Positions 1-53,704 of a stretch of DNA of 53,704 nucleotides are shown here, piece after piece (positions within the stretch are counted from its first letter, which is position 1; every line of letters begins with the position of its first letter). A program made the translations under genes and the position numbers. Below the pieces are notes generated by a model. That model was not told the DNA's origin. It searched no databases and saw nothing but the letters and a program-made list of their open reading frames with translations. Location: positions 1 to 53,704 of IMG/VR virus record IMGVR_UViG_3300023184_000166, one strand, 5' to 3'. The stretch comes from a virus (Duplodnaviria; Caudoviricetes).

Positions 1-212
1 TAGAAATAGGCGTAAGTGTAATCAAAGTCGGAATAGAAATAGGCGTAAGTGTAATCAAAGTCGGAATAGAAATAGGCGTAAGTGTAATCAAAGTCGGAAT
101 AGAAATAGGCGTAAGTGTAATTATAGTCGGAATAGAAATAGGCGTAAGTGTAATCAAAGTCGGAATAGAAATAGGCGTAAGTGTAATTATAGTCGGAATA
201 GAAATAGGCGTA
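1..212. repeat. 33-bp coding tandem repeat (11 aa TPISIPTLITL), about 6.4 copies visible
   Basis: Unit tagaaataggcgtaagtgtaatcaaagtcggaa starts at 1, 34, 67, 100, 133, 166, 199 with two variants (atcaaa/attata). Confidence 0.95.
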
Positions 213-5448: not shown

Positions 5449-6018
5449 TCAGCATAATTTAGCACCAATAATTGCTTTAAATCGACAACCATTACCTATG
5501 GCTTTATCAGCCCAAAGTAATTTAATATGCTCTAATTCTCCATCATCATCAAAATCACCTACCTGTTTGAAAAATTGACGGTTTATAAATAAACCATTCA
5601 AGGTTCCATCAACAAAATTCATCTTGCGATTAGCGATTGGGAAAAGAATATCTTTTTCACTTGAGACAAAAAAAGAAAATTTTTTGTCAATATTGTCTTT
5701 AACAGTTGTTCCAGCAAAAACAGTAAAAGCCCAATCTGCACTTGAATGTCGCATTCCAACATTCAAAAGCGATGAAATTGTTGACTTGCCCTTGTATACA
5801 GGACATATTTTTTTTATTTCACCAAGATCATCAGTCGTAGCCAATGAATCAGTAACAGCAATAAAAGGAACTTCTGAATGAAATTCTTTTAATGAATTGA
5901 CCGTTGTTTTTAGAAGACTGTGTGAATAATTAGGACAAAGTATGATAAAACTATACTTAAGTTGTTTTGGCGTGTAGAGATTCATAAGAATGAGAATTCC
6001 TGATTTGCTCCACAGCAA
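5449..6018 (-). CDS. GT-A (GT2-like) glycosyltransferase-fold protein; start probably near 5985
   Basis: YSFIILCPN..LLKTTVNSL..LLNVGMRHSSADWAFTVFAG follows the GT2 N-terminal pattern; DxD not evident. Confidence 0.5.
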   Translation of the reverse strand: MLWSKSGILILMNLYTPKQLKYSFIILCPNYSHSLLKTTVNSLKEFHSEVPFIAVTDSLATTDDLGEIKKICPVYKGKSTISSLLNVGMRHSSADWAFTVFAGTTVKDNIDKKFSFFVSSEKDILFPIANRKMNFVDGTLNGLFINRQFFKQVGDFDDDGELEHIKLLWADKAIGNGCRFKAIIGAKLC

Positions 6019-7316: not shown

Positions 7317-7799
7317 TTAAATAAAACTTAAGCGCCAATTAAACACAATCTGCATAGTTGGTGTCTTTGTCAGGTTTGGAAATGTAACCATACTGTAAAG
7401 ATCCCCAGTTGCCATTTGCAAAGCCATTTCATTAAGCACTTGATTATTGGTTGCCACATCATTTGCTGGCAAAACAGATGTAAAAACAACTTGAGATGGA
7501 ACATTAGGATCTACTGCAGATATAACTGATTTGCTTACCAGTTGGCTATACAAACCATTTCTATTGGGAGAAACAACTTTCTTGTTTCCACCACCATCAG
7601 TGCCACCAATGCCAAAAAGCATGCGGTTAATATAAAACTCATAAGTTTGGTTAAAACTATTGGCTAAAGACGATGCTAAAGCATTACGCCCTGTAACGAG
7701 AATGGTGTTCGGAAATTCAATGACTTCTTCTTTGCCATCATCGTGTTTAATGATCATCTGTACATCACCACGGACTTTAATTTCGGTTCCAAATTCCAT
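7317..7799 (-). CDS. Putative baseplate/tail-fibre attachment protein
   Basis: 160 aa; NTILVTGRNALA..LNEMAL..FPNLTK..FNWRLSF pattern; operon context. Confidence 0.55.
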   Translation of the reverse strand: MEFGTEIKVRGDVQMIIKHDDGKEEVIEFPNTILVTGRNALASSLANSFNQTYEFYINRMLFGIGGTDGGGNKKVVSPNRNGLYSQLVSKSVISAVDPNVPSQVVFTSVLPANDVATNNQVLNEMALQMATGDLYSMVTFPNLTKTPTMQIVFNWRLSFI

Positions 7800-24100: not shown

Positions 24101-27100
24101 GCTCCAAGAGCAATTGCACCAGCCGCCATAGCTGGAATGCTTATAGCCATTCCAATAGCAAGGAATGCTAATGTTGCAGCTAATTTAATTCCTTGCCAAG
24201 AAAGTGTTCCAAGCGTGGATCGAACGCCAACCATAAAAGCTGCTATGTTTTCACCAAGAGCAGTCATGTCCTCAGCAGTCCATGAACTTGTGGCCTTGTA
24301 AACAGTCCAAATTCCCACAGACAATGCTGCTAATGCAACAGCACATGCTCCGAGAGCAATTCCTCCCGCAACCATGGCTGGAATTCCAATAACAAGAGCA
24401 GCAGCCATGGCCACTAGGGCGACAGCAATTTTTACGGCTCCCCATGCAATTGTCCACGCAATTGAAGTAACGCCAGTCATGAATGCAGCAAGATCATTGG
24501 ATGCTTGAATCAATCCGGGACCATCAAGTCCTAAAGCTCCTCCAATCCAAAGCAATCCTTTAACAAGACCTCCAATTGCCATGCCCAAAACAATTAAACC
24601 AGCGGCTAGTCCTGCAAGAACTAAAGCTCCGATACCTATTAGTGGCAATGCGGAAATAATTGCAGGAGCGGCTGCTCCAAGAGCGAATAATGCAACTGCA
24701 ACTAAACCTCCACCAACTGCAATCGTTAAAATGGCAGCAGATAAAGCAGCAAAAACTGCTGCAACCTCTAATGCAGTCTTAGCATCAATTCCCAAGAATC
24801 CTAAAACTGTTTTAGCCAACCAAACTAATACTCCACCAATAATAATGATGGCAGCACCTATGCCAAGAATAGCAATTGATCCCTTTGCAACTTTAGCCAA
24901 TATCTTACCGGGGTTGTTCATAGCTTGGCTAAAGCCCTTGGATTCCCCCATTTTGTCCATTGCTTCAACAAACTCGCCAACACCAAGTGCCACTGCTCCA
25001 GCAACGCCAGCAACAGCAACAAGAACGGCTGCAGTTTCAGCAACTTTGGTCAAATCCATTCCTAACATGCTGAATAATTTTGATGCCAACCAAACCATAG
25101 CCGTGCCGATCAATACAATGGCAGGACCAATAATTGTGATTGCAGCCACTGCCTTAAGACATGTTTTAACCATATCTCCAGAGATATTGCCCATCTCTGA
25201 AGCTTTACCTTCACTCAACTCTTTATAAGCTGCAACAGAGGCAACTGCCACAGCAGCACCTACGGCAGCAATTGCTCCAATAGCAGCGGCTACTTCTATA
25301 ATTTTGGAAACATCAAGTCCTAAAGCTTTCAATACCTTATCACCAAGATAAACCAGTGCCGTACCCAGAAGCAAAGCACCAGCACCAAGAACGGCTGCAC
25401 CAGCAGCAGTTTTTGCAAAATCACCACCTAATGCCTTCATGCTTTCGGGATCAGTAGATGGTCCAACTTCGCCTTCAATTGCAGGCCCCTTCTTAATGGC
25501 TTCTGCTTTTTTTCCAGCTTTCTTTGAAGCATCAATATTTTTTGCTTCGTTCGTAATATTTCTTTTTTGACCTTTTATAATTTTTTCTTCGTCTTTACCT
25601 CGACGAGTCTCACTTGTTATTTGTTTCTTTTCTTTAGAAGATAAAATTGCATCTTCTTTGTCTTTTTTCTCTTGTTGTTTTCTTTGAGCACGCATCATTG
25701 CTTGATCCATGCCAGCACTTTCAGCCCTAGCTTTAGCGTCTGCCTTAGCTTGTGCAACTTGTTCAGCAGTCCATTTTTGTTTTCCAGCTTGTTTGCCAGC
25801 AGTTTCAACTGCTTCTTGAGGGCGTTCAGGTGTGATAACGCCACGCAATTCACGAATTTTTTCTTTCTTTTGAGCCTTGCTTAAACTTTCATCAGCTTCA
25901 ATTTTCTTTTCTTGTAATTTTCTTTCTGTACGAATTTCTGCTTGGGTCTTACCAGTAGCTTCAACCTTTGCTGCAGCTTTGGCTTTAGCTTCTGCAACTT
26001 GTTCTGGTGAAACTTTTTGTTTTTCAGCTTCTTTACCGGCAGCTTTTGTAGCTTCGCCAGTTTTTGTTGAAGTGGGTTTTACTTCTGCTTCTTTAAGACC
26101 TTCTTCAGGCTTCTTTTTTTCTATACCTAAATACCTTTTAATGTTTTCAACTATGCCCCCTTCTTTCTTTTCTCCGCCATATGCTAAAGTTTCAATAGCA
26201 GCTTTGATGGAGAGCAAAGTCATTGTCATTTTGATTGCGCCTGCTGCAATGCCACCTAATGCTGCAGCCATAAACACAAACTTTGCAAAAGAACTGTCAA
26301 AGAAACTAGACAATAATTTGTTGCTAGCTCCCGAAAGATAGTCATTAAGTTTTTTCAACTCAAGATTGGTTTGATCTTGAGGTGTAAGATTAGCTTTTTG
26401 TTGTGTGGCAACTACTTGCATGCCTTCATTGATGATAGACATGGCATCTTGGAATTTCTTCGGATCTGCTGCTGCTTCTGCTATCTGTTCTGGAGTTAAT
26501 TTCATTTGATCTTTGCCCATTGCCTTCAGCTGGGCATTTACTGATTCCATTTGTTTGGTCAAAACAGTTTGAGACATTTCTTTTTCAGATAGCTTACCAA
26601 CATCTCCTGTGCCTCCGACAGCTTTATAAGCATCTTCAAGAGCTTTTTTGCTATCTTTATTCATTTTTCCGTATGCGTCGGACATATCTTGTGCGCCCTT
26701 AGCTGCTTCGCTGACTTTTGTCAGTGCAGACATTGCTGCTCCACTTTGAATTGCAGCTTTCTTTTCCAATAAAGACGATTTTTCTTGTGTTGTAAGATTT
26801 TTTTCAAGTTGTTTGTCAATGTCTTTGAGCTTATCGGTATAATCTTTGCCAGATTCTTTTAAAGCTTCTAATGTGCTTAAAGCTTGGCCAGCGTCCATTT
26901 GGAACATGGCTTGCATTCTAAAGCTAATATCTCTTTTTGCTTCATCTGAAAGACTTTCAAATTGTTCTCTACTCTCAATTCCCATGCTTTTAAGTGTCTT
27001 TTCCATGCCAGCACTTAAATCTTTAATTCCTTGTTTAGTTTTAAGCATGGCTCCAGATGAAGCTTTATCAAACTGACCAACAGCACCAGCTGACATAATA

Positions 27101-28371
27101 ATAAGGTTTTGCATTCCCTTACTAGTTTCATTAAACAAAGCATGACTACTTGACAAACCTTTGGCCAGTGCATTGATTTCATCAGCTACATCAAGTTTTT
27201 GACCATTTGCAGCTAATTCCAACATGTTTGTTGCTGCTTCAGCAGTTAGTTGTCCTGAACCACGCATTGCTTTTTGAAGGCCCTTAGCACTATTCATAGC
27301 ACTAGTTAAAGCTTCGCCAGTTAAACCTGTGTTTCTAGCAACCTCCTGCATTCCACGACCCATTTGAGCTAATTGGGCATTATTGAACTTGCCTGCTACA
27401 GCAAATTCTTGGAATGTTTGTTGAAGTGATCCAGCTTCTAAACCTAATTGTTCTTCAGTGTGTAGAGATTGAGTGGCAAGCTGTGCGGCTAATTTACGAT
27501 CTTTGACACCTGTTTTTAATGCTTTTAAATAACTCTTTTCGAATTTTTCACGCTCGACACCAGTTTTGTGTACTGTAAGACCTAAGTCTTCGTAGGATCT
27601 ATTTAGTTCGTGATGGCCAGCAAGCAGTCCATCTGTTTCATAGGCAGCACGACGGACATCACGAATGAAGTCCATTTGACCTTTGCCAATATTTCCAAAC
27701 AAAGTTCCCATGACATCAAGGCCAAGAGCATGGGGGATATATTCTAGTCCACTACGCAGAGTGTAAAATTGATCGCTAAGTTTACCTGTAACATCGCCAT
27801 ATTTTCTGTAAACTGATGCTTGTTTTGTAAGACTTTCAAGTGAAGATCTTACTTCAGCACCTTTTTCCTTGTCCAAGGCTAGCTGAGCAACCTGTTCTTT
27901 TGTAATTCTATTTTGCTGTGCATATGTTCGTACAGCATCCAACAAGTCAGTTTGATGATATTTTTGTCTATCTTTGTAAAGATTGTCAGTTAGTTTTTTT
28001 AGAACTGACATTTCTTCTGCGTCCATTTCAGGAGCTTTTCTATTGTCAGCACCTTTAGATTTTTCTTTTTTATCTTTTCCCTTTTTAGATTTATCTTCTC
28101 TTTTTCCCTTAACATCCTTCATTGCAGAAACAGTTTTGTTCATGAACTCTTTTTGTTCTTTAAGACCATTTTGAAAATTGGTCGTAAATTGAGTCATGGC
28201 TTCGGTAAGTTGTTTAATTGCTTCTTCTTGAGAGGCACTAGGCGGATTAACGGCTTTAGGAGCACCAGTTTTAGCGCTAGCAATTAAGCTTTGAATCTCT
28301 GCTGTATTGAGATTCAATGCATCAACTGTTCTACCCAGTGCGTCAATTATTTGTTGATTTGGTTCTGCCAT
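18133..28371 (-). CDS. Tape measure protein, 3412 aa
   Basis: Very long Ala/Gly/Leu-rich helical protein with hydrophobic segments, directly upstream of tube initiator and baseplate genes. Confidence 0.88.
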   Translation of the reverse strand: MAEPNQQIIDALGRTVDALNLNTAEIQSLIASAKTGAPKAVNPPSASQEEAIKQLTEAMTQFTTNFQNGLKEQKEFMNKTVSAMKDVKGKREDKSKKGKDKKEKSKGADNRKAPEMDAEEMSVLKKLTDNLYKDRQKYHQTDLLDAVRTYAQQNRITKEQVAQLALDKEKGAEVRSSLESLTKQASVYRKYGDVTGKLSDQFYTLRSGLEYIPHALGLDVMGTLFGNIGKGQMDFIRDVRRAAYETDGLLAGHHELNRSYEDLGLTVHKTGVEREKFEKSYLKALKTGVKDRKLAAQLATQSLHTEEQLGLEAGSLQQTFQEFAVAGKFNNAQLAQMGRGMQEVARNTGLTGEALTSAMNSAKGLQKAMRGSGQLTAEAATNMLELAANGQKLDVADEINALAKGLSSSHALFNETSKGMQNLIIMSAGAVGQFDKASSGAMLKTKQGIKDLSAGMEKTLKSMGIESREQFESLSDEAKRDISFRMQAMFQMDAGQALSTLEALKESGKDYTDKLKDIDKQLEKNLTTQEKSSLLEKKAAIQSGAAMSALTKVSEAAKGAQDMSDAYGKMNKDSKKALEDAYKAVGGTGDVGKLSEKEMSQTVLTKQMESVNAQLKAMGKDQMKLTPEQIAEAAADPKKFQDAMSIINEGMQVVATQQKANLTPQDQTNLELKKLNDYLSGASNKLLSSFFDSSFAKFVFMAAALGGIAAGAIKMTMTLLSIKAAIETLAYGGEKKEGGIVENIKRYLGIEKKKPEEGLKEAEVKPTSTKTGEATKAAGKEAEKQKVSPEQVAEAKAKAAAKVEATGKTQAEIRTERKLQEKKIEADESLSKAQKKEKIRELRGVITPERPQEAVETAGKQAGKQKWTAEQVAQAKADAKARAESAGMDQAMMRAQRKQQEKKDKEDAILSSKEKKQITSETRRGKDEEKIIKGQKRNITNEAKNIDASKKAGKKAEAIKKGPAIEGEVGPSTDPESMKALGGDFAKTAAGAAVLGAGALLLGTALVYLGDKVLKALGLDVSKIIEVAAAIGAIAAVGAAVAVASVAAYKELSEGKASEMGNISGDMVKTCLKAVAAITIIGPAIVLIGTAMVWLASKLFSMLGMDLTKVAETAAVLVAVAGVAGAVALGVGEFVEAMDKMGESKGFSQAMNNPGKILAKVAKGSIAILGIGAAIIIIGGVLVWLAKTVLGFLGIDAKTALEVAAVFAALSAAILTIAVGGGLVAVALFALGAAAPAIISALPLIGIGALVLAGLAAGLIVLGMAIGGLVKGLLWIGGALGLDGPGLIQASNDLAAFMTGVTSIAWTIAWGAVKIAVALVAMAAALVIGIPAMVAGGIALGACAVALAALSVGIWTVYKATSSWTAEDMTALGENIAAFMVGVRSTLGTLSWQGIKLAATLAFLAIGMAISIPAMAAGAIALGAFAIAIAAMALAVWGLQKSLLNWNPSEIQALNEQLSGFISGVGSIVWTISSNALTIAGIAAFAIGAPVLAAGLVAGGAGLVLIAGGMAILATGVMGIASALENVNVTKDMIPEFTTKIDNLIAVAIGIAKAVFWNTVALGKLAAELLASSVAIGLMGTVAIGFNLLAIPMKSLAESMIGLGKVFSESINQELADEITSKLDLLVNTLTAITGKILWMAGLMAAMSVGMVAALASVPLMYFAAGAMWAFSEPLKDVILSMFAVGQSVADTIEPSLAQEIVDNLDKTYNAVWDICSKIIGITTILGITGIASTISLMSVPIILFGAASLRVFGYAMKTYLDAVVDVSQTLSDTIDEELSSSLISGLNLAFNTAAEISATIIKMAAMMPIIAAGLAMSLFAIPTIYGAAIALKLLAAPLETYVTTARDTADLLGNIISKELGETLSNLLNDCFNAAYTISLSMMAIAAKMPIISLGLAFATAAIPTILAAALSLALLTPPLMLYMVTARETSKLLGSIMSKELGEELSGMLRDCFDAAFLISTTFMGIAAKMPIIALGLGIALLASPLIIGATLAIAALSIPLYLFAIATKDAADLIGSVMSKDLGNELSEMLYDTFDAALLISNAFMGIAAKMPIIALGLGIAALASPLIVGSTLAIAALSIPLYLFAIATKDAADLIGSVMSKDLGNELSEMLRDTFDAALLISNAFMGIAAKMPIIALGLGIAALASPLITGSTLAIAALSVPLYLFAITARKAADLIGSVMSKDLGNELSEMLYDTFDAAHKISTAFMGIAAQMPIIALGLGIAALASPLIVGSTLAIAALSVPLYLFAIATKEAADLIGSVMSKDLGEELSENLSNTFDAAYKISTVFIGVATQMPIIALGLGIAALALPLVTGATIAIAALSVPLYLFAITARKAADLIGSVMSKDLGDELSENLSNTFDAAYKISTVFIGIATQMPIIALGLGIAILALPLVTGATIAIAALSVPLYLFAITARKAADLIGSVMSKDLGDELSENLSNTFDAALLIGSAFMKIATQMPIIALGLGIAILALPLVTGATIAIAALSIPLYLFAITARKAADLIGSVMSKDLGNELSEMLRDTFDAAYKISTTFMDIAAQMPIIALGLGIALLALPLVTGATIAIAALSVPLYLFAITARKAADLIGSVMSKDLGDELSENLSNTFDAAYKISTVFIGIATQMPIIALGLGIAILALPLVTGATIAIAALSIPLYLFAITARKAADLIGSVMSKDLGDELSEMLRDCFDAANKISTTFMGIAAQMPIIALGLGIAALASPLIVGSTIAIAALSVPLYLFAITAREAADLIGSVMSKDLGDELSEMLRDTFDAAYKISTTFMDIAAQMPIIALGLGIAILALPLVTGATIAIAALSVPLYLFAITARKAADLIGSVMSKDLGDELSENLSDTFDAAYKISLTIMGISAKLTVIGSGMFMAMFSIPLIYGIGLSISKLSSPILYFVASAKNAAKIIGDVMPKDVAEELVENLNSAFNAAYNIAISMMAMSAKLAIIGVGFGIALLATPILYFATGTILSLANPLISFINAAALIGQAITSVFDPNEMESISDQIISVIDSAASIGDALVIMGTKMAVIGAGVVAAFFATPLMYMAGKTLKILAKPLQSFIDTATTVFPVEEVQASQGKLDAIVGMFDSLQNLMGGIVTAASNLVIFRGFGKLFNFESMSKDFLALADGLKTGLIGPLTESLPSVTELEAVVAQLDSTVKVLSKVQDVVETMASVIASITMAGMDLSALGGIPFDKIGMFCSALLGGGKPTVAGAAGGGASNIGKAPSDMAIEKRIEGQQNESQMRTSKNIDELVNNALRGDGILVQPIGDIGNITAQAPEPVTAQTATADNASIQSKIQMHKVSTEPSKSKVSSEDLTEIAGTNETQVLLQKQLVDLFSKVLDALQPKNIPTTAGQGSTTDTASNTVPGRPANYFKTTTGSVAQGSAKAITNLGPPKMA
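19595..22800. repeat. 246-bp (82-aa) coding tandem repeat; about 11 near-identical units plus degenerate flanks
   Basis: tctttagacataa recurs at 19841, 20087, 20333, 20579, 20825, 21071, 21317, 21563, 21809, 22055, 22301, 22547 (period 246); degenerate in-register copies at 19595 and 22793. Confidence 0.95.
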
Positions 28372-32374: not shown

Positions 32375-33880
32375 TTGGTAAATATAATAGTACTTTTTTG
32401 TATGGAACGCATTATGAACAAATTTAGTCAATTTTTTGAATTTCGTGAAGAGCAAAACGAAAAGCCTATTCAAGGCGTTACTGCTCGTATTAAACTAGAA
32501 AAGAAATCTGGCAGTAGAGAATTTACGCCATTTATTATCGACAAGTCTCACCATTCAAATTTGGCTAAGATTGTTCGAGCATTTCTCAACAGTGACAAAG
32601 TTACTGTTGGCTATACAACCATTGAAAAAGATAAAGGTGAAATTGAACCATCTCTTAAAAAGAAGTCTTTATATTTAACGGGTGGTGCAGTTCGTGATCA
32701 TCTTATGGGCAAGACCCCAGATAATTATGATCTTGTTACTGATGCCACTCCTAGCGAAATTCGTATGATACTTTCACAAAATGGTTTTATTGAAGTTCAA
32801 CCAAAAAGTGGCAATAGCATAAAATATCGCAATCTTCCAATAGCAGGAAAGAAAAGTTCAATATTTTATGCAAGTCGATGGGACAAAAATCATCGTGAAA
32901 TGGAAGTTACCGCTGAAGTAAATGGCCAACCTTATACCATTTCAACTCTTAGTAAATCTCCAAAAAGTAAAAACTTTACCCCCGATGAAGTTATCGCTGC
33001 ATCCAATATTGAAGATGACGCAGCAAATCGTGACTTTACCATCAATGCCATGTATATTCCCCTTAAAAATGATGAAGGTCCTAACAATGAACTAATTGAT
33101 CCTTTTGGAGGAGCAAATCATTTAAAAAGTGGAGAACTAAAATCAATTGGTAATAAACTTCCTGATCGTCTGGGTGAAGATCCAATGACTGCAATGCGCT
33201 TTGTAAATCAATTTAATCGTTTTGGCAAAGGCGATCTTCCTGATTCGATGACAAAAGCAATTGTGTCGCACAAAGATTTCTCTGGGGCTGAACCTGAATC
33301 TATGAAGAATCAATTCTGTAAAGGGATTGAACATCCAGATGTTGATGCCCGTCAATTCATGCTCTCTATGCACAAAACAGGCTTATTATCCAAGATATTT
33401 CCCGGCATTGAATTCAATCCTGAAGATATGCCCGAAGGATTTAAAGGCGACCGTTGGATGAGTGCCGCTTGGGTTTTGCGCAACAATAATCCAAATGATG
33501 TGCGTGAACTTTTGATGACCGGTGGCTGGACTCGCCAAGAAGCAAACGACATTGCTTACCTTGTGAAAATCTACCAATGGGCTGGTAATAACTTTGATCC
33601 TGATCAATTTTACGATATAATCCAAAGCCACACTGGACTCACACGAGGTAAAATCAAAGAATGGATGGTTATGGCAAAGACCTACAGTGCCAATGTAGAC
33701 AACTTTTTAAATTTTGATGGCAACGACCTAAATCCTTACAAAAGTGATGATGGCGGAATGAAAAAAATCAGTCCTATTTATGTTCAGGTTTTAGGACGCA
33801 ATCCCATCGGTGGTGAATTTGACAGTATTAAAAAAATGCTTTTTACTAATCGCTGGAAAGATATTAACAGCAAAATTTAA
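32375..33880 (+). CDS. cca: Class II tRNA nucleotidyltransferase/poly(A) polymerase family protein with atypical motifs; start probably 32414
   Basis: LYLTGGAVRDHLMG, RDFTINAMY, LIDPFGG, EDPMTAMR. Confidence 0.8.
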   Translation: MVNIIVLFCMERIMNKFSQFFEFREEQNEKPIQGVTARIKLEKKSGSREFTPFIIDKSHHSNLAKIVRAFLNSDKVTVGYTTIEKDKGEIEPSLKKKSLYLTGGAVRDHLMGKTPDNYDLVTDATPSEIRMILSQNGFIEVQPKSGNSIKYRNLPIAGKKSSIFYASRWDKNHREMEVTAEVNGQPYTISTLSKSPKSKNFTPDEVIAASNIEDDAANRDFTINAMYIPLKNDEGPNNELIDPFGGANHLKSGELKSIGNKLPDRLGEDPMTAMRFVNQFNRFGKGDLPDSMTKAIVSHKDFSGAEPESMKNQFCKGIEHPDVDARQFMLSMHKTGLLSKIFPGIEFNPEDMPEGFKGDRWMSAAWVLRNNNPNDVRELLMTGGWTRQEANDIAYLVKIYQWAGNNFDPDQFYDIIQSHTGLTRGKIKEWMVMAKTYSANVDNFLNFDGNDLNPYKSDDGGMKKISPIYVQVLGRNPIGGEFDSIKKMLFTNRWKDINSKI

Positions 33881-33913
33881 TCATATCATTATAAAATGTG
33901 ATATCATTACACC

Positions 33914-34453
33914 ATGATAAACCGCATGGTGATTTATGATTTTGATGGCACTCTTTTTCGCTCTCCTGAAAAAGAAAAAGGGATGCAGCGATATGCAGAA
34001 GAAATTGGCAAACCATATCCTCACAAAGGTTGGTGGGGTCGCATTGAATCTTTAATGCCTCCTGTGGTTCCACATGTACCAGATTTATCTTGGTATGTTT
34101 CAAAAACAATTAAACAATATCATATAGATCAGGCGTGCCCCAAAACTAATATTATACTCATGACTGGAAGAACCAATAAATTCCGTTCCAGAATTATCAG
34201 CTTATTGGAAAATCAAAATATTAGGTTTTCTCAGATGTATTTTTGCAACGACCACGACTCATCAGGAGCGAATACTTTTGAAGTAAAAGCCAATCGTATT
34301 AAAAAATTGCTTAATCCAAATATAGAAACTCTTGAAATTTGGGAAGATAGACCTGATCAAATTCATCAATTTAACATTTTAACTCAAGAATTATACAATA
34401 ATTTGACGCATTTGGTGAAAATATTAGTTCATGATGTTATAGAAAAAGGTTAA
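33914..34453 (+). CDS. HAD phosphatase (Swiss-army-knife RNA-repair-like HAD)
   Basis: IYDFDGTLFRSP, GWW, LMTGR, IWEDR. Confidence 0.75.
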   Translation: MINRMVIYDFDGTLFRSPEKEKGMQRYAEEIGKPYPHKGWWGRIESLMPPVVPHVPDLSWYVSKTIKQYHIDQACPKTNIILMTGRTNKFRSRIISLLENQNIRFSQMYFCNDHDSSGANTFEVKANRIKKLLNPNIETLEIWEDRPDQIHQFNILTQELYNNLTHLVKILVHDVIEKG

Positions 34454-49816: not shown

Positions 49817-49876
49817 TAGGTACAAAAACTCCAAGAGCCAAGCCAAAGCCAGCTGGCAATCAGCTGGCATCCACTC

Positions 49877-50263
49877 CTAATTCCAGCAGACCCCACCAGT
49901 CTCCTGTAGTATTAGTATTGTATGTTCTGATATCTGCTGTGCCTTACAGATCCTAGCTACTGCATCGGGATCGCTAGTTGATCCGCACCAAGGATCAAGT
50001 CCTAGCCCCTGCATCGCATCAATACACTTCACTCGCCCCCATCCGAAGGTGAGGAAGTGATCGAGCCTACCCGCAGTAGGATGGCCATCAACCAAAGCCC
50101 ATGCTGCTTCGCCGTCAAGCTCTGCAGCCTGAACCCGCAATGCCTTCAGTATCTCCATAGTGCCAGCAGGTACATCAGCAAGAGCTTCGAGGGTGGCAGC
50201 AGATTCAGTATTGGGGTAAAGACGGGTGGCCATGGTTATAATCTCCTGTGGCGTAATTGCCAT
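49877..50263 (-). CDS. Cassette 1 ORF, hypothetical, apparently leaderless
   Basis: 128 aa, GC-rich; ATG directly follows CGATGTACTC; hairpin GCCAGCTG-N5-CAGCTGGC at 49848-49868. Confidence 0.75.
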   Translation of the reverse strand: MAITPQEIITMATRLYPNTESAATLEALADVPAGTMEILKALRVQAAELDGEAAWALVDGHPTAGRLDHFLTFGWGRVKCIDAMQGLGLDPWCGSTSDPDAVARICKAQQISEHTILILQETGGVCWN

Positions 50264-50264
50264 G

Positions 50265-50294
50265 AGTACATCGATGAGGTGTTGAGATTAGTCC
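50265..50294 (-). promoter_or_regulatory. Cassette promoter-like motif 1
   Basis: GGACTAA-N14-CGATGTACT on minus strand. Confidence 0.7.
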
Positions 50295-50364
50295 AAGAAA
50301 ATGTTTGGATATTAAAAAGAATGTCACGGTAATGTCCTAGGTACAAAAACAAATGGGAAGTACA

Positions 50365-50390
50365 AATAAAAAAGCCCCCGAAGGGGCTTT
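50365..50390 (-). terminator. Cassette 2 terminator
   Basis: AAAGCCCC-CGAA-GGGGCTTT with U-tract on minus strand. Confidence 0.85.
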
Positions 50391-50415
50391 GGTTTAGCAT
50401 GAGACACTACATTCA

Positions 50416-50790
50416 TTAGTCGTTAATGCTGAAGTGGCTGAGCCATTCATAGAGTCGCTTCTGACGATTGCAAGAAGTCAACCCATCTTCGACCTGCAGC
50501 AACATACTCTTAGCAGCCTTAACTAACTTGTCTCGGTCATCATTGACTGACAACATCGTGCAGTAACTGCCGTCATGTACTGTGCACCATTCATTGCCAC
50601 CATCTTCAGCTACATTACCTAGATCATCGTTGCCATCATTCTTGCGGTATAGAGTATAGCGGAGCAAGGGTTCATCTTCAGAATCTTCTGGGTCGTAGTC
50701 TCCTTGGTATCCCTCACCAATATATTCCAAGACAACCTTTACCAGTCCGTTTTCCGAAACTACTTCGATATCCTTAAATTCATTTTCCAT
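50416..50790 (-). CDS. Cassette 2 ORF, acidic hypothetical protein
   Basis: 124 aa, AAGGAG RBS. Confidence 0.8.
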   Translation of the reverse strand: MENEFKDIEVVSENGLVKVVLEYIGEGYQGDYDPEDSEDEPLLRYTLYRKNDGNDDLGNVAEDGGNEWCTVHDGSYCTMLSVNDDRDKLVKAAKSMLLQVEDGLTSCNRQKRLYEWLSHFSIND

Positions 50791-50820
50791 CTCGTTCTCC
50801 TTTTAAAAAGTTTTAGTTGA

Positions 50821-50856
50821 TTACACCAGTACATCGTACTGATGTTGGGTTTAATC
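50821..50856 (-). promoter_or_regulatory. Cassette promoter-like motif 2
   Basis: GATTAA-N14-CGATGTACTGGTGTAA. Confidence 0.7.
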
Positions 50857-50873
50857 TAGGATTACAAAAAGGT

Positions 50874-51050
50874 TTATGACATTTTTTTCAAAACTTTACG
50901 GGCTTCCTCAAGTGCAAGTTCTCTGGTATCAGCCTCGCCAGTTTTATAAACTTTGTTATCGTCATCTTCAATAGACCAAATAAACTTATTGACATAATAG
51001 GTTTCATCAATTATCTTTTGATCCACAACAATCTTCAATTGCTTAATCAT
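50874..51050 (-). CDS. 58-aa ORF in inter-cassette spacer (MIKQLKIVV...)
   Basis: AAAGGA RBS abuts the 13-mer; start reassigned from 51170. Confidence 0.65.
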   Translation of the reverse strand: MIKQLKIVVDQKIIDETYYVNKFIWSIEDDDNKVYKTGEADTRELALEEARKVLKKMS

Positions 51051-51090
51051 AGTGCGTCCTTTCCTAGGTACAAAAACAAATGAACAATGT

Positions 51091-51116
51091 AATAAAAAAA
51101 AGCCCCCGAAAGGGCT
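51091..51116 (-). terminator. Cassette 3 terminator
   Basis: AGCCC-CCGAAA-GGGCT plus U-tract on minus strand. Confidence 0.75.
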
Positions 51117-51123
51117 GGTTGGC

Positions 51124-51411
51124 TTAGAGTGCAACTGGTTCGCTACGCCAAGAGAAATCTGATTTGTCATAGCTGTGGAAGCGATCAGCCTTGATCATCG
51201 CCCCTGCGGGGATGAGATGTTCAAGAGATGCGTAGACAGCACGGAGTTCAGCTTCCGTTCGCACGGTGGCGAGTACCGTCCAGCAAGACATTTCCGTGCG
51301 GGCGATCAGGTTGAAGCTCTCACCCTGCTCACGATTGATCTTGGGCAAATTCATGCCCCAAGCAGCCAAGACAAGTGCGTTGAATGATGTGTTGATTGTT
51401 GCAGTAGTCAT
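51124..51411 (-). CDS. Cassette 3 ORF, hypothetical
   Basis: 95 aa, GC-rich, AAAGGA RBS. Confidence 0.75.
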   Translation of the reverse strand: MTTATINTSFNALVLAAWGMNLPKINREQGESFNLIARTEMSCWTVLATVRTEAELRAVYASLEHLIPAGAMIKADRFHSYDKSDFSWRSEPVAL

Positions 51412-51443
51412 GGAAAAGTCCTTTCAAAGTGGGTTGTGGTTAA

Positions 51444-51480
51444 TTACACCAGTACATCGTAACGATACCGAGTTTAGTCC
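51444..51480 (-). promoter_or_regulatory. Cassette promoter-like motif 3
   Basis: GGACTAA-N14-CGATGTACTGGTGTAA. Confidence 0.7.
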
Positions 51481-51699
51481 AAGATTTATAAAACATTTTT
51501 GAAAGCCTGAATTTTGATCTTTATGAAGAGTTTATTTCCAAGATGACTATCGGGATGGCCTGCAATGGATTGTGAAGTTTTAGAGCTATTCCATGCTGTT
51601 TGTGGGCAAGCCTTATCTTTGATGGATTGAATATTGGTTTGTATGCAGATGCTTGGTGGTAGAGTTTATACTGTAGGTACAAAAACGGGTTGATGGGGC

Positions 51700-51726
51700 A
51701 ATAAAAAAAGCCCCCGAAGGGGCTTT
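51700..51726 (-). terminator. Cassette 4 terminator
   Basis: AAAGCCCC-CGAA-GGGGCTTT. Confidence 0.85.
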
Positions 51727-51729
51727 GGA

Positions 51730-52074
51730 TCAACTCCACTTGGTAGGTTCTGCAACCTCGTAGTCATAGCAGGTGTAGTCCTCGACCAGCCTGAACCCGC
51801 CATTGGGGCAGAGAGCCTCAGCCTTGGCAAGGCTGGCTTCCGCTGCCTTCAGCGTGTGGTGGGCAGACCACAAAAATTCGCAAGGGGGGTAGTCATACCA
51901 TGAGTTGCCTTCACCATCGTAGTCGAGGCCGTCATCCCATGCGAGGATGGCGAAGGGAACAATTGCCAACCCTTCTGGCAACGGGCGGGGTTCAGGGGCG
52001 TATTGGCAGCGAACGCCTTCAAGGGTGTCTTGGATAGTATCAAATTGATTGGCGGTGGTGTTTTTCATAGTCAT
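51730..52074 (-). CDS. Cassette 4 ORF, hypothetical (start 52068 or 52074)
   Basis: 112-114 aa, GC-rich, AAGGAG RBS. Confidence 0.75.
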   Translation of the reverse strand: MTMKNTTANQFDTIQDTLEGVRCQYAPEPRPLPEGLAIVPFAILAWDDGLDYDGEGNSWYDYPPCEFLWSAHHTLKAAEASLAKAEALCPNGGFRLVEDYTCYDYEVAEPTKWS

Positions 52075-52095
52075 CTCCTTTAGGGGTTAAGTTCG

Positions 52096-52131
52096 TTACA
52101 CCAGTACATCGACCCGATTGCAGGATTAGTC
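52096..52131 (-). promoter_or_regulatory. Cassette promoter-like motif 4
   Basis: GACTAA-N14-CGATGTACTGGTGTAA. Confidence 0.7.
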
Positions 52132-52352
52132 TAAGATTTTTTTGAATATTTTTAATTGCTCAATTTTGGCAATTAAGCAGCTTTATTGCCCTAGATGACA
52201 TTCGGGTCGCTTTGATAGTATTTGTGCGTTATATGAGGTGTTCTATGCGATCTAATGGACTTTAGCTGGCGAAGTTCGTGGTATTTGTCTGGGGTTAGGT
52301 AGTAGTAGGTATGTTTGTATTATAGGTACAAAAACAGGTTGATAGGGCAAAT

Positions 52353-52382
52353 AAAAAAAGACCCACGAATGGGTCTTTTTTT
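52353..52382. terminator. Cassette 5 terminator
   Basis: AAAAAAAGACCCA-CGAA-TGGGTCTTTTTTT. Confidence 0.85.
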
Positions 52383-52398
52383 ATTCCTTGCCTAGGAA

Positions 52399-52569
52399 TT
52401 AAATTTCAGTATACGCCACGCTGGCTTTTTCGCCGTAAATAAATTTTGCGTCTTTCTCGGCTTGGTTGTGGCTCTTGGCCCGAATATAAAGATTCGGTAT
52501 TTCATTCCCTTTTTCATCATAAACGATGAAAACTTTATTGCCTTTTCCGACAAACTTTACATTATTCAT
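52399..52569 (-). CDS. Cassette 5 ORF, 56 aa (below track cutoff)
   Basis: Manual translation MNNVKFVGKGNKVFIVYDEKGNEIPNLYIRAKSHNQAEKDAKFIYGEKASVAYTEI; GGAG RBS. Confidence 0.8.
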   Translation of the reverse strand: MNNVKFVGKGNKVFIVYDEKGNEIPNLYIRAKSHNQAEKDAKFIYGEKASVAYTEI

Positions 52570-52596
52570 CTTAGTATCTCCAGTAAGCCCTATTGC

Positions 52597-52632
52597 TTAC
52601 AAAGGTACATCGACTCGATAGCGGGTTTAGTC
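52597..52632 (-). promoter_or_regulatory. Cassette promoter-like motif 5
   Basis: GACTAA-N14-CGATGTACCTTTGTAA. Confidence 0.7.
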
Positions 52633-52705
52633 TGGAATTTTATAAAATATTTTTTATACTTTTGTGTTTGTATTGTAGGTACAAAAACAGGTTGATAGGG
52701 CAAAT

Positions 52706-52730
52706 AAAAAAGGCCCACGAATGGGCCTTT
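52706..52730 (-). terminator. Cassette 6 terminator
   Basis: AAAGGCCCA-CGAA-TGGGCCTTT. Confidence 0.85.
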
Positions 52731-52732
52731 AA

Positions 52733-52924
52733 TTATTCTTGTTCGTAACCTTCAAACCATGGCCCTCTAATTCGGGTTCGTTCCACGGACTTCTTTTTTG
52801 TTGCAGTTCGACTTGAAGTTTCAGGATTTTTGCAATGAGATTGAGCTTCTTCCAGCGTTAGTCCAGTCTTTAAAGTTTTGTTTCCGCCGTTGAAGTAAAA
52901 TCGAATTATTTTGTAAGTAGTCAT
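52733..52924 (-). CDS. Cassette 6 ORF, small phage protein
   Basis: 63 aa; YKIIRF..TGLTLEEAQSHCKNPETSS..WFEGY; GGAG RBS. Confidence 0.8.
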   Translation of the reverse strand: MTTYKIIRFYFNGGNKTLKTGLTLEEAQSHCKNPETSSRTATKKKSVERTRIRGPWFEGYEQE

Positions 52925-52951
52925 CTTAATCTCTCCAGTAAGCCCTATTGC

Positions 52952-52987
52952 TTACAAAGGTACATCGACCCGATAGCGGGTTTAGTC
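52952..52987 (-). promoter_or_regulatory. Cassette promoter-like motif 6
   Basis: GACTAA-N14-CGATGTACCTTTGTAA. Confidence 0.7.
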
Positions 52988-53048
52988 TAGAATTTTTTGA
53001 ACTTTTTTTGAATAAGTTGCCTAGGTACAAAAACAGATTGATGTGGCA

Positions 53049-53071
53049 ATAAAAAAAGCCCCCGTAGGGGC
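53049..53071 (-). terminator. Cassette 7 terminator
   Basis: GCCCC-CGTA-GGGGC plus U-tract on minus strand. Confidence 0.8.
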
Positions 53072-53078
53072 AGTTGGA

Positions 53079-53255
53079 CTATTTCCTAGGCTTGCTTAAA
53101 TCACACGCAAAGGCCTTGTAGGGATAAACATCTAAGGAATTGTATTCCTTGCAAAATTCTACTACATCTTCATAACTTTCTAACCAAAAAAAAGCACCAT
53201 ATTCAGAATCAAATGGTTCAACCTTCAAAATTGTTGCACAAAATAAATAATCCAT
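53079..53255 (-). CDS. Cassette 7 ORF, 58 aa (below track cutoff)
   Basis: Manual translation MDYLFCATILKVEPFDSEYGAFFWLESYEDVVEFCKEYNSLDVYPYKAFACDLSKPRK; AAAGGAG RBS. Confidence 0.8.
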   Translation of the reverse strand: MDYLFCATILKVEPFDSEYGAFFWLESYEDVVEFCKEYNSLDVYPYKAFACDLSKPRK

Positions 53256-53284
53256 TTTTCAGTCTCCTTTAAGGGTTAAGTTCT

Positions 53285-53320
53285 TTACATCAGTACATCG
53301 ACCCGATAGCGGGTTTAGTC
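53285..53320 (-). promoter_or_regulatory. Cassette promoter-like motif 7
   Basis: GACTAA-N14-CGATGTACTGATGTAA. Confidence 0.7.
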
Positions 53321-53451
53321 TAAGATAAATCAAAAAAATTTTATACTTTTTTTTAAAAGATGCGTTTGTATTGTAGGTACAAAAACAGGTTGATAGGGCA
53401 ATAAAAAGTGTTTCTTTTCTTTACCATAAAGATTAGAAAAAGAATAATTCT

Positions 53452-53481
53452 TAAGGTGTGGAAGATTTTCTCCACACCTTA
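53452..53481 (-). terminator. Cassette 8 hairpin (different stem from other cassettes)
   Basis: TAAGGTGTGGA-N8-TCCACACCTTA. Confidence 0.55.
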
Positions 53482-53525
53482 CATAAACTACACCCATGGT
53501 AAGGTATTACCTTACTAAACTGGCA

Positions 53526-53681
53526 TTAAATCGGATTATATTTGCAAATAAGTTTGCGAATAATTTTTTCAACATTACAACCTCTTACTCCATCCAAAAA
53601 AATCTCAGAATTAGCGCCAAAATTAGATTTATAAATTGTATAAGTTCCATCGTTTTGTTTTCGGGAAAAAAAACTTATCAT
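53526..53681 (-). CDS. Cassette 8 ORF, 51 aa (below track cutoff)
   Basis: Manual translation MISFFSRKQNDGTYTIYKSNFGANSEIFLDGVRGCNVEKIIRKLICKYNPI; same leader and RBS as cassette 7. Confidence 0.75.
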   Translation of the reverse strand: MISFFSRKQNDGTYTIYKSNFGANSEIFLDGVRGCNVEKIIRKLICKYNPI

Positions 53682-53704
53682 TTTCAGTCTCCTTTAAGGG
53701 TTAA

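What the first reader, a model, noticed from the sequence alone, without database searches (positions are those of the whole stretch)
49817..53704. Integron-like array of interchangeable single-gene expression cassettes in a jumbo phage
Seen: at least 8 head-to-tail units with a fixed minus-strand order: AT-rich tract, GACTAA-N14-CGATGTAC motif, leader/RBS, one small ORF (128, 124, 95, ~113, 56, 63, 58, 51 aa, mutually unrelated by eye), hairpin terminator, then invariant GTTTTTGTACCTA. The scaffold is conserved while the cargo is wholly replaced; the array continues past the window edge. Known analogy: PeSL promoter/stem-loop cassettes shuffling ORFans in T4-type phages and SPO1-type host-takeover modules; this one differs by the non-sigma70 motif and strict 13-bp boundary. 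Inference: a gene capture/shuffling platform for early host-takeover or anti-defence genes. No recombinase is visible in the window.
Basis: partly seen in the sequence, partly recalled or inferred. Interest (0 to 1): 0.9.

Follow-up and report, generated by a model that had tools for sequence, protein, structure and literature searches.

The report
Huge-phage array of self-contained gene cassettes
This is one end of a long run of tiny phage genes, each with its own phage-specific promoter and terminator, in an uncultivated giant phage; it resembles the shuffling-prone accessory-gene regions of T4-type phages, not an integron.

Summary
It has 8 exact GTTTTTGTACCTA boxes, 7 GAyTAA-N14-CGATGTAC motifs, at least 6 intrinsic terminators and 9 unrelated small ORFs, all on the minus strand at 49.8-53.7 kb. 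Homology between units stops at the start and stop codons.

The integron reading is not supported:
- Each unit carries its own promoter-like motif and terminator.
- The box is not an attC-like inverted repeat.
- No tyrosine or serine recombinase was found in 5 relatives' records, one rated complete.

The window is a fragment of a huge phage whose relatives span 250-530 kb. Every relative I examined has an equivalent strand-specific array in its own motif dialect around a shared core, TGTAC...GTGTAA. G005 has 60 copies, all within 28 kb of 340 kb. No phage RNA polymerase was detected, but 5 of 9 records encode sigma factors, including a recurring ~180-aa one.

Best reading: a hyperplastic accessory-gene region of insulated single-gene transcription units read by a phage-directed polymerase. 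The repeated scaffolds act as portable homology for duplication and exchange, as PeSLs do in T4-type phages. Four cargo ORFs have foreign GC3 (0.46-0.63 against 0.20-0.29).

Timing, cargo function and the role of the 13-bp box remain unproven. This is a new variant of a known kind, of moderate interest.

The parts
53526..53704 (-). Unit 1, cut by the contig end: leader/RBS (53704-53682) plus a 51-aa ORF (53681-53526). A hairpin without a T-run follows.
   Evidence: The leader repeats the one at 53283-53256, so the assembly broke inside a repeat. GC3 0.17.
53374..53386 (-). 13-bp box GTTTTTGTACCTA, copy 1
   Evidence: exact.
53079..53320 (-). Unit 2: promoter motif 53320-53293, leader, 58-aa ORF 53255-53079
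   Evidence: GC3 0.29.
53022..53071 (-). Terminator hairpin (53071-53058), T-run, then box copy 2 (53034-53022)
52733..52987 (-). Unit 3: promoter motif 52987-52960, leader, 63-aa ORF 52924-52733
   Evidence: The 76-nt promoter+leader is 94.7% identical to unit 4's and the identity ends at the ATG.
52676..52730 (-). Terminator (52730-52709) plus box copy 3 (52688-52676)
52399..52632 (-). Unit 4: promoter motif 52632-52605, leader, 56-aa ORF 52569-52399
52323..52378 (-). Terminator hairpin (GACCCA..TGGGTC plus T-run, read by eye) plus box copy 4 (52335-52323)
   Evidence: Not listed by the terminator scan.
51730..52131 (-). Unit 5: promoter motif 52131-52104, leader, 112/114-aa ORF (52068 or 52074 to 51730). 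A 191-nt spacer separates it from box 4.
   Evidence: GC3 0.63, foreign-like. Homologues at 71-79% identity in 3 metagenome clusters, and a partial one inside another huge phage's array.
51674..51726 (-). Terminator (51726-51707) plus box copy 5 (51686-51674)
51124..51479 (-). Unit 6: promoter motif 51479-51452, leader, 95-aa ORF 51411-51124
   Evidence: GC3 0.56.
51065..51116 (-). Terminator (51116-51101) plus box copy 6 (51077-51065)
50874..51064 (-). Unit 7: box, then GGAAAGGA, then the ATG 14 nt after the box; 58-aa ORF 51050-50874. It has no GACTAA motif and no terminator of its own.
   Evidence: Same layout as the box-type promoters of G005.
50416..50856 (-). Unit 8: promoter motif (GATTAA variant) 50856-50829, leader, 124-aa ORF 50790-50416
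   Evidence: GC3 0.46.
50338..50390 (-). Terminator (50390-50371) plus box copy 7 (50350-50338)
49877..50293 (-). Unit 9: promoter motif 50293-50266, leader, 118-aa ORF (50233-49877; 128 aa if read from 50263)
   Evidence: The family sits in arrays of other huge phages. Model pLDDT 95.5 with no fold neighbour.
49817..49868 (-). Weak terminator (49868-49848) plus box copy 8 (49829-49817); downstream end of the array
   Evidence: No motif copy at lower coordinates except one chance CGATGTAC at 48864.

Best explanation
The stretch is the downstream end of a long, strand-specific array of autonomous small-gene transcription units. It lies in the hyperplastic accessory-gene region of an uncultivated huge myovirus of roughly 450-500 kb.

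Each unit has, in order:
- a phage-specific promoter (-35-like GAC block, 17 nt, then CGATGTAC-N3-TGTAA);
- a 32-40 nt stretch to the ATG that includes a Shine-Dalgarno site;
- one ORF, sometimes more;
- a Rho-independent terminator that insulates it from its neighbour;
- a 13-bp TGTACC box.

The box is homologous to the core of the promoter used by relatives. It is therefore a second promoter-type or regulator-binding element, not a recombination site.

The promoters are most likely read by host RNA polymerase redirected by a phage-encoded sigma factor. Relatives encode several, including a recurring ~180-aa FliA/ECF-like one, and no phage RNA polymerase is detectable.

The near-identical scaffolds work secondarily as portable homology. 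General recombination between them duplicates, deletes and exchanges whole cassettes within and between co-infecting relatives, as PeSLs do in T4-type phages. That would explain the complete cargo turnover at a conserved genome position.

Shown: the anatomy, the strand and region restriction, homology with relatives' promoters, the absence of recombinases, cassette-sized duplication, and foreign composition of some cargo.

Inferred: that the motifs are promoters, which polymerase or sigma reads them, their timing, and recombination as the cause of turnover.

The confidence of 0.65 is for the whole statement. By part: insulated transcription units about 0.85, phage-sigma reading about 0.5, scaffold-mediated recombination as the driver of turnover about 0.55.
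For: Anatomy and statistics.

Motif-to-ATG distance is constant at 32-40 nt, and the motif always points toward the downstream ORF, in 20 of 20 copies across the window, L110, L111 and L112.

Sigma-70-like sites are not enriched: 7 found against 8.6 expected.

Relatives carry the same kind of array:
- The window is syntenic with G001, G002 and G009 over 1-44.6 kb.
- G001 has 26 copies of ...GCCGATATATGGGTGTAAC, each followed by an RBS and ATG, over 98.7-130 kb.
- G002 has CGAT-N6-GTGTA promoters plus TTGTAC boxes.
- G005 has 60 forward TGTACCCT, all within 265,233-293,005 of 340,341 bp, and only 4 reverse.
- L132, L133, L134, L135 and L136 hold 11-17 copies each of a dialect motif in 4-6 kb. 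L132-L135 keep the TGTAC core and L136 has TGTAG in its place.

A metagenome contig with the window's own dialect holds 22 boxes and 12 promoters in 17.95 kb, with entirely different cargo.

Transcription machinery:
- Sigma70_r2 hits occur in 5 of 9 relatives' records, including both rated 98% complete or more.
- One G005 sigma scores 5.8e-30 to the FliA/WhiG model, below that model's cut-off.
- No PF00562 or PF00623 in 5 records (controls rang).
- No PF00940 in 9 records (the T7 control rang at 1e-109).
- Precedent: the phiEco32 phage sigma reads a single-block TAATGTATA promoter (PMC4331800, passages read).

Recombination and turnover:
- Homology blocks end at the start and stop codons.
- A duplicated unit in L111 (159 and 160 aa, 88.6% aa identity) is homologous from the promoter to the box and not beyond.
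- GC3 is 0.46-0.63 in 4 cargo ORFs against 0.20-0.29 in 5 backbone genes.
- The c128 family and a c112 relative sit in arrays of other huge phages with different dialects and GC.
Against: - There are no RNA data. No listed run is RNA, so no transcription start or end is shown and 'promoter' rests on position and conservation only.
- The window itself encodes no sigma factor. Four of 9 relatives' records show none either, though these are fragments rated 31-79% complete.
- The long contiguous motif of G005 and L133 (~25 nt) looks more like a single-subunit polymerase promoter than a two-block sigma promoter. A very divergent phage polymerase would escape the Pfam models.
- The role of the box is unresolved. 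In G002 it occurs as perfect palindromes, which suits a dimeric regulator better than a promoter.
- No cassette gain or loss was seen among population variants. Contigs from 3 other studies bridge scaffolds in the same order at ~99% identity. All joints and loose ends fall in repeats, where short contigs break anyway.
- Scaffold similarity could be kept by selection from the transcription machinery alone.
Confidence: 0.65

Rival explanations
1. Integron-like platform: the 13-bp box is an att-type site at which a site-specific recombinase inserts and excises single-gene cassettes.
For: - The box is invariant at every cassette boundary.
- Cargo is replaced exactly at the boundaries.
- Some cargo has foreign composition.
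- The duplicated cassette in L111 ends at the box.
Against: - No PF00589 or PF00239 in 5 relatives' records, including a complete 532-kb one (controls rang).
- No recombinase family among the 43 window ORFs scanned with Pfam, PHROGs or both.
- The box is not an inverted repeat.
- Every cassette has its own promoter and terminator.
- The box is homologous to the relatives' promoter core, and in G005 it directly precedes leaders and ORFs.
Confidence: 0.04
2. Plain regulon: the scaffolds are promoters and terminators kept alike only by selection from the transcription machinery. They play no part in gene turnover, and cargo differences reflect ordinary slow gain, loss and divergence.
For: - The same order is seen at ~99% identity in contigs from other studies.
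- Relatives use the same promoter class in front of larger genes too, with spacings up to 4.5 kb in G001.
- Some cargo, such as the c128 family, is widely conserved near the array end.
Against: - Identity of 88-100% extends over 36-76 nt, including positions outside the conserved motifs. Leaders and the terminator-to-box spacer are examples. The adjoining ORFs share nothing.
- Cargo GC3 spans 0.17 to 0.63 inside uniform scaffolds.
- A cassette-sized duplicate exists.
- No cargo is shared with syntenic relatives.
Confidence: 0.2
3. The motifs are promoters, and the CTGTTTTT tract before the box a sequence-specific stop signal, for an undetected phage-encoded RNA polymerase rather than for a sigma-directed host enzyme.
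For: - Relatives' motifs are contiguous, ~25 nt long, and have a lineage-specific upstream half and a conserved downstream half followed by G-rich GTGTAA. From recall, this layout resembles T7-type promoters.
- Some boxes are preceded by ATCTGTTTTT. From recall, this resembles the T7 class II termination signal.
Against: - No PF00940 in 9 records, with T7 as a ringing control.
- No beta or beta-prime domains in 5 records.
- 10 of the 22 G005 ORFs of 500 aa or more were scanned, and none is a polymerase of this kind.
- The 3412-aa ORF has no match among PDB sequences.
- Sigma factors are present.
Confidence: 0.12

Closest known systems
PeSL (promoter-early stem-loop) regulatory cassettes in hyperplastic regions of T4-type phages (Arbiol et al. 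2010, PMC2839356; Comeau et al. 2014, PMC4122927)
   Same: - Composite promoter-plus-terminator motifs repeated tens of times.
- An AT-rich tract lies upstream and an SD and start codon at the 3' end.
- They sit in front of ORFans and are concentrated in variable regions.
- The motifs are alike while the genes between them are unrelated.
- They are proposed to act as homology for modular shuffling.
   Different: - The promoter here is not sigma-70 consensus.
- It belongs to a clade-specific family whose upstream half changes between lineages.
- The terminator is a separate canonical hairpin plus T-run, followed by an extra invariant 13-bp box.
- The array is one contiguous, single-strand block of about 28-40 kb with ~60 units, not many scattered regions.
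- Recombination at the motifs and mini-circles are shown for PeSLs but not here.
Mobile and chromosomal integrons (from recall)
   Same: A head-to-tail array of small, unrelated, mostly single-gene cassettes with a short conserved sequence at each boundary.
   Different: There is no integrase, no attC-type imperfect palindrome and no common Pc promoter. Each cassette is a complete transcription unit.
Phage-sigma promoter classes, e.g. phiEco32 / 7-11 (consensus TAATGTATA; PMC4331800, passages read)
   Same: A short non-sigma-70 motif containing TGTA, repeated before one temporal class of genes, in phages that encode their own small sigma factor.
   Different: - The motif here is longer and comes in two forms per unit in the window's lineage.
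- It is linked to a terminator at every gene.
- The cognate sigma is only inferred from relatives.
SPO1 host-takeover module (from recall)
   Same: A dense cluster of small genes in many short transcription units with strong promoters and terminators.
   Different: From recall, SPO1's units use host sigma-A promoters, lie in the terminal redundancy and number about two dozen genes. Neither feature was tested here.

Membership tests
Integron | IntI-type tyrosine recombinase next to the array | tested here: not met
   No recombinase family among the 43 window ORFs scanned. PF00589 found in 0 of 5 relatives' records, one rated complete (control rang in 14 of 14). The missing part of this genome could not be searched.
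Integron | attC sites: imperfect inverted repeats at each cassette boundary | tested here: not met
   The boundary box GTTTTTGTACCTA is not palindromic. The only hairpins are canonical terminators with T-runs.
Integron | Promoterless cassettes expressed from one common promoter | tested here: not met
   7 of 9 units have their own two-block motif 32-40 nt before the ATG, and at least 6 have their own terminator. Promoter activity itself is not shown.
Integron | Excised circular cassettes | tested here: inconclusive
   'Goes back' joints all have 38-59 nt sides lying inside repeated scaffolds, in short contigs, so they cannot be told from repeat artefacts.
PeSL regulatory cassettes | Sigma-70-consensus early promoter | tested here: not met
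   7 sigma-70-like sites against 8.6 expected, none at the conserved motif.
PeSL regulatory cassettes | Stem-loop terminator/attenuator joined to the promoter, AT-rich upstream tract, SD and start at the 3' end | tested here: met
PeSL regulatory cassettes | Concentrated in hypervariable regions, upstream of ORFans | tested here: met
   Synteny ends at 44.6 kb. Cargo has no family hits and no homologue in the syntenic relatives.
PeSL regulatory cassettes | Indels or replacements between close relatives with junctions inside the motif; mini-circles | tested here: inconclusive
   Homology between units ends at the scaffold edges. No polymorphism was seen among ~99%-identical population contigs. 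No close sister genome was available.
Phage-sigma-dependent promoter class | Phage encodes the sigma factor; the motif precedes one gene class | tested here: inconclusive
   Sigma domains in 5 of 9 relatives' records and none in the 53.7-kb window. The motif is restricted to one region and one strand.
Phage-sigma-dependent promoter class | Transcription starts mapped at the motif | not testable with these tools
   No RNA run is listed for this sequence.

The most novel reading that the evidence does not exclude
A widespread clade of uncultivated huge phages (GC 36-63%) keeps a dedicated 30-40 kb 'cassette farm' at a fixed genome position. It holds about 60 or more insulated single-gene units driven by a private promoter family with the core TGTAC...GTGTAA. 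The specificity half of that promoter drifts into lineage dialects together with a phage-encoded sigma. The uniform scaffolds let whole genes pass between co-infecting phages of different composition, which amounts to a recombinase-free, promoter-borne gene-exchange system on a scale not described for PeSLs.
Probability: 0.3. Interest if true: 0.7.

Novelty: new variant of a known kind. Interest (0 to 1): 0.5.

Why it matters
Huge phages are known almost only from metagenomes, and how they schedule transcription and acquire accessory genes is largely unknown.

This array gives a concrete, testable promoter family: a core shared across lineages plus lineage-specific dialects. It also points to a candidate small sigma factor to pair with it.

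The array marks where these phages keep their fastest-changing genes, which is the natural place to look for host-takeover and counter-defence functions.

If scaffold-mediated exchange is confirmed, the PeSL idea would extend from T4-type phages to a distant clade with a different transcription system.

Tried and rejected
- N4-like idea: I first took the 3412-aa ORF for an N4-type virion RNA polymerase with hairpin promoters. I rejected this. PHROGs and Pfam give no polymerase hit, there is no PDB sequence match, it sits where a tape-measure gene sits, and the spacer hairpin is present in only about 6 of 20 promoters.
- Exact-motif scans of viral contigs gave 5 single chance hits and then 0 hits. 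The five closest relatives' records lack the window's exact motifs.
- The 401-aa ORF flanking the array has no homologue in 9 relatives' records.
- blastn of the array against GenBank phages: no match.
- Cargo function: PHROGs and Pfam gave nothing above threshold for the 9 window cargo ORFs. The sister contig's cargo gave only DUFs and a cupin.
- The c128 family gave a confident model (pLDDT 95.5), but no Foldseek match with E below 0.7 in PDB or BFVD and no usable Atlas hit.
- Close-relative protein scans of viral contigs found no relative of c128 or c124.
- Expression: no RNA holder is listed.
- Read laying joints and loose ends all lie in repeated scaffolds and were not used as evidence for rearrangement. 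Uncovered bins are not interpreted.
- Bacteroidetes-type and sigma-28-type promoter readings were considered from recalled consensus sequences. I dropped them because the spacing does not fit and strong SD sites are present.
- Literature: searches found no description of such arrays in huge phages. That is four searches of the held library, not proof of absence. The phage G paper (PMC12484599, passages read) reports only software-predicted promoters.
No supplements were requested.

Full report
**1. What is in the sequence**

On the minus strand between 53704 and 49817 there are nine small ORFs of 51, 58, 63, 56, 112, 95, 58, 124 and 118 aa.

- Seven ORFs are preceded by GAyTAA-N14-CGATGTAC (6 exact, 1 with GATTAA). 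The motif ends 32-40 nt before the ATG, and a GGAG-type ribosome site lies between them.
- Eight exact copies of GTTTTTGTACCTA follow the ORFs (11 matches at up to 2 mismatches against 1.99 expected, 0 of 100 shuffles reaching 11). Seven of the eight sit about 16-20 nt after a G+C-rich hairpin with a T-run. One search lists 12 terminator-like sites against 4.1 expected, six of them on the minus strand at the expected places. A seventh was read by eye.
- Sigma-70-type sites are not enriched: 7 against 8.6.

A self-comparison shows that 36-76-nt blocks of 88-100% identity run from stop+3..8 to stop+57..68, and from ATG-72 to ATG-6..+4. The ORFs between them share nothing.

The observation therefore stands, with small corrections:
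- One unit (58 aa, 51050-50874) has only the box, an RBS and the ATG.
- The '128-aa' ORF almost certainly starts at its second ATG.

The stretch is not an assembly artefact. Twenty DNA runs from 11 studies hold all or part of it, and contigs from other studies cross several scaffolds in the same order. One example is a 1528-nt contig covering 50201-51729 with 8 differences.

**2. What genome this is**

The window is a whole 53.7-kb contig. It encodes a myovirus baseplate module downstream of a 3412-aa ORF. It also encodes RNA-repair-like genes, a Clp protease, methyltransferases and other accessory genes. It encodes no polymerase, sigma factor or recombinase.

- The baseplate J protein has 286 relatives in viral contigs at 60-77% identity. 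Several lie on records of 250-530 kb that CheckV rates 50-100% complete.
- The nearest GenBank phage is an uncultured 595-kb record at 47% identity.

'Jumbo phage' is therefore right, and the window is about a tenth of the genome. Gene order is shared with G001, G002 and G009 over window 1-44.6 kb and then stops.

**3. The same kind of array in every relative, in different dialects**

- G001 carries 26 copies of ...GAAGCAAAGCCGATATATGGGTGTAAC, each followed by an RBS and ATG, on one strand over 98.7-130 kb. It also has CTTGTACTCT boxes.
- G002 has CGAT-N6-GTGTA promoters preceded by one to four AGTCTTGTACTATA boxes, some as perfect palindromes.
- G005 (340 kb) has 60 forward copies of TGTACCCT, all inside 265,233-293,005, and 4 reverse copies. 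Here the box and the GTGTAAC leader form one element, TAGGTC(C/T)A(G/T)TGTACCCTAGTGGGTGTAAC, placed directly before leaders and ORFs and, in 13 cases, just after terminators.
- Loci from five further huge-phage contigs show 11-17 copies each in 4-6 kb:
  - L133: GCTTAGCTGTACCTAGTAGAGTGTAA
  - L134: ATTGAGGTTGTACTAAATCAGGTGTAG
  - L135: AAGGTTGTACTAATTGGGTTGTAGCG
  - L132: GCGATTGTACC..TAAGGTGCCCAAAC
  - L136 (63% GC): GTGACACCGGCTGTAGGGGTGTGAG

The shared core is TGTAC(C)(T)A, a few bases, then GGTGTAA(CGAAC). The bases upstream of it are lineage-specific.

The window's CGATGTAC-N3-TGTAA motif and its 13-bp box both contain this core. The box occupies the place, just after the terminator, where G005 and L133 have their promoter.

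A metagenome scan with the window's own promoter pattern found one 41-kb contig. Of that contig 17.95 kb was delivered (L110, L111). It holds 22 boxes and 12 promoters of the same dialect with wholly different cargo. Contigs of its ORFs co-occur with the window in runs X3, X5, X7 and X12, as loose ends that match ORFs seen. It is therefore probably the continuation of this array or that of a very close relative.

Some of its box-to-box units hold two or three ORFs, so 'single-gene' is the rule but not a law.

**4. How it most likely works**

Position, orientation and fixed distance to the ATG all fit one reading, as do restriction to one strand and one 28-32-kb block and the pairing with terminators. 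Each unit is a self-contained, insulated transcription unit, and the motif is the promoter of one gene class. This is inference. No RNA run is listed.

The reading enzyme is probably host RNA polymerase with a phage sigma:
- Sigma70_r2 domains occur in 5 of 9 relatives' records, including both that are 98-100% complete.
- A ~180-aa form recurs in four records at 179-185 aa. The G005 copy is nearest to the FliA/WhiG and ECF-type models.
- Beta and beta-prime domains were found in 0 of 5 records, with controls ringing.
- A T7-type polymerase was found in 0 of 9 records, with T7 as a ringing control.

A phage sigma reading a single short TGTA-containing block has a precedent in phiEco32, whose consensus is TAATGTATA (PMC4331800, passages).

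If this is right, the class is middle rather than immediate-early. That weakens the 'early host-takeover' label without excluding it.

The box is either a second, minimal promoter or a regulator site. The 58-aa ORF starting 14 nt after a box favours a promoter, as in G005. The palindromic pairs in G002 favour a regulator site. I cannot decide between the two.

**5. Gene turnover**

Evidence for cassette-level exchange:
- Homology ends at ORF boundaries.
- No window cargo is shared with the syntenic relatives or with the sister contig: 0 hits for 13 proteins.
- Cargo GC3 is 0.17-0.40 in five ORFs but 0.46-0.63 in four. Five backbone genes have 0.20-0.29, and the long spacers have 36% GC.
- A 159/160-aa paralogue pair in L111 is homologous from promoter to box and no further. 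Two other units separate the two copies.
- The c128 family (13 homologues) and a c112 relative sit inside arrays of other huge phages with other dialects and 50-63% GC.

Against, or at least neutral: population contigs at ~99% identity keep the same order, and no sister genome close enough to show junctions was available.

The mechanism that fits is general homologous recombination between scaffolds, as shown for PeSLs (PMC2839356, abstract and section 13 read; PMC4122927, abstract read). A site-specific system is unlikely. PF00589 and PF00239 were found in 0 of 5 relatives' records, and the box is neither palindromic nor free of another function.

**6. Comparison and verdict**

The array works like a PeSL-rich hyperplastic region. 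It is not a PeSL in the strict sense, because its promoter is not sigma-70-like, and it is not an integron: three defining features were tested and not met.

What seems new:
- the scale, about 60 units in one block;
- conservation of the array's position across a broad uncultivated clade;
- the promoter family with a fixed core and lineage dialects.

Four literature searches found no description of this. That is limited evidence.

Cargo function is unknown. The conserved 118-aa family folds confidently (pLDDT 95.5) but has no structural neighbour.

Overall this is a real and tidy feature, a new variant of a known kind, of moderate interest.

Noticed in passing
window 18133-28371 (-), repeats 19781-22559: A 3412-aa ORF lies immediately upstream of the baseplate genes. 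It contains 11.3 tandem copies of a 246-bp (82-aa) unit at 89% identity. It is probably a giant tape-measure protein. Relatives match at only 34-36% over 700-780 aa. It has no Pfam hit above cut-off and no PDB sequence match.
   Followed up: partly
L095 (G002) 5700-5810; G001 about 101.7-102.2, 105.2-105.9, 108.5 and 112.4 kb: Clusters of GTAGAATACTC-containing repeats at a ~20-bp period, in both orientations, lie inside or beside the arrays of two relatives. They look like iterons or multi-site regulator arrays. They were not seen in the window.
   Followed up: no
L095 (G002) 7750-7795: The TTGTAC box occurs as a perfect palindrome, TTATAGTACAAGACTTGAAGAATTCTTCAAGTCTTGTACTATA, with extra direct copies between the terminator and the promoter. 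This suggests a dimeric DNA-binding protein.
   Followed up: partly
window 49877-50233 (-); loci L133-L139: The 118-aa cargo family has invariant MATRL and FLTFGWGR motifs. It is conserved in the arrays of several huge phages, within about 2 kb of each array's downstream end in those loci. Its model is confident (pLDDT 95.5) but has no fold match in PDB or BFVD.
   Followed up: yes
window 32375-34453 (+): A nucleotidyltransferase of the poly(A) polymerase / CCA-adding family lies next to a HAD domain of the 'Swiss Army Knife RNA repair' type. This may be an RNA or tRNA repair pair, and it is conserved in G001, G002 and G009.
   Followed up: no
G005 (L113-L130), about 70-124 kb: Many 11-mers typical of tRNA T-arms (GGTTCGAnTCC, 14-16 copies each) suggest a large tRNA gene cluster. 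A class I tRNA synthetase, a PARP-like protein and a Ro60-like protein are encoded elsewhere in the record. ARAGORN was not run on it.
   Followed up: no
window 49.8-53.7 kb; G005 260-290 kb: The array is richer in G+C than its genome in both cases: 0.46 against 0.36 in the window, and 0.53 against about 0.47 in G005.
   Followed up: partly
window 53682-53704: The contig ends inside a leader that repeats the one at 53283-53256, so the assembly broke at a scaffold repeat.
   Followed up: partly
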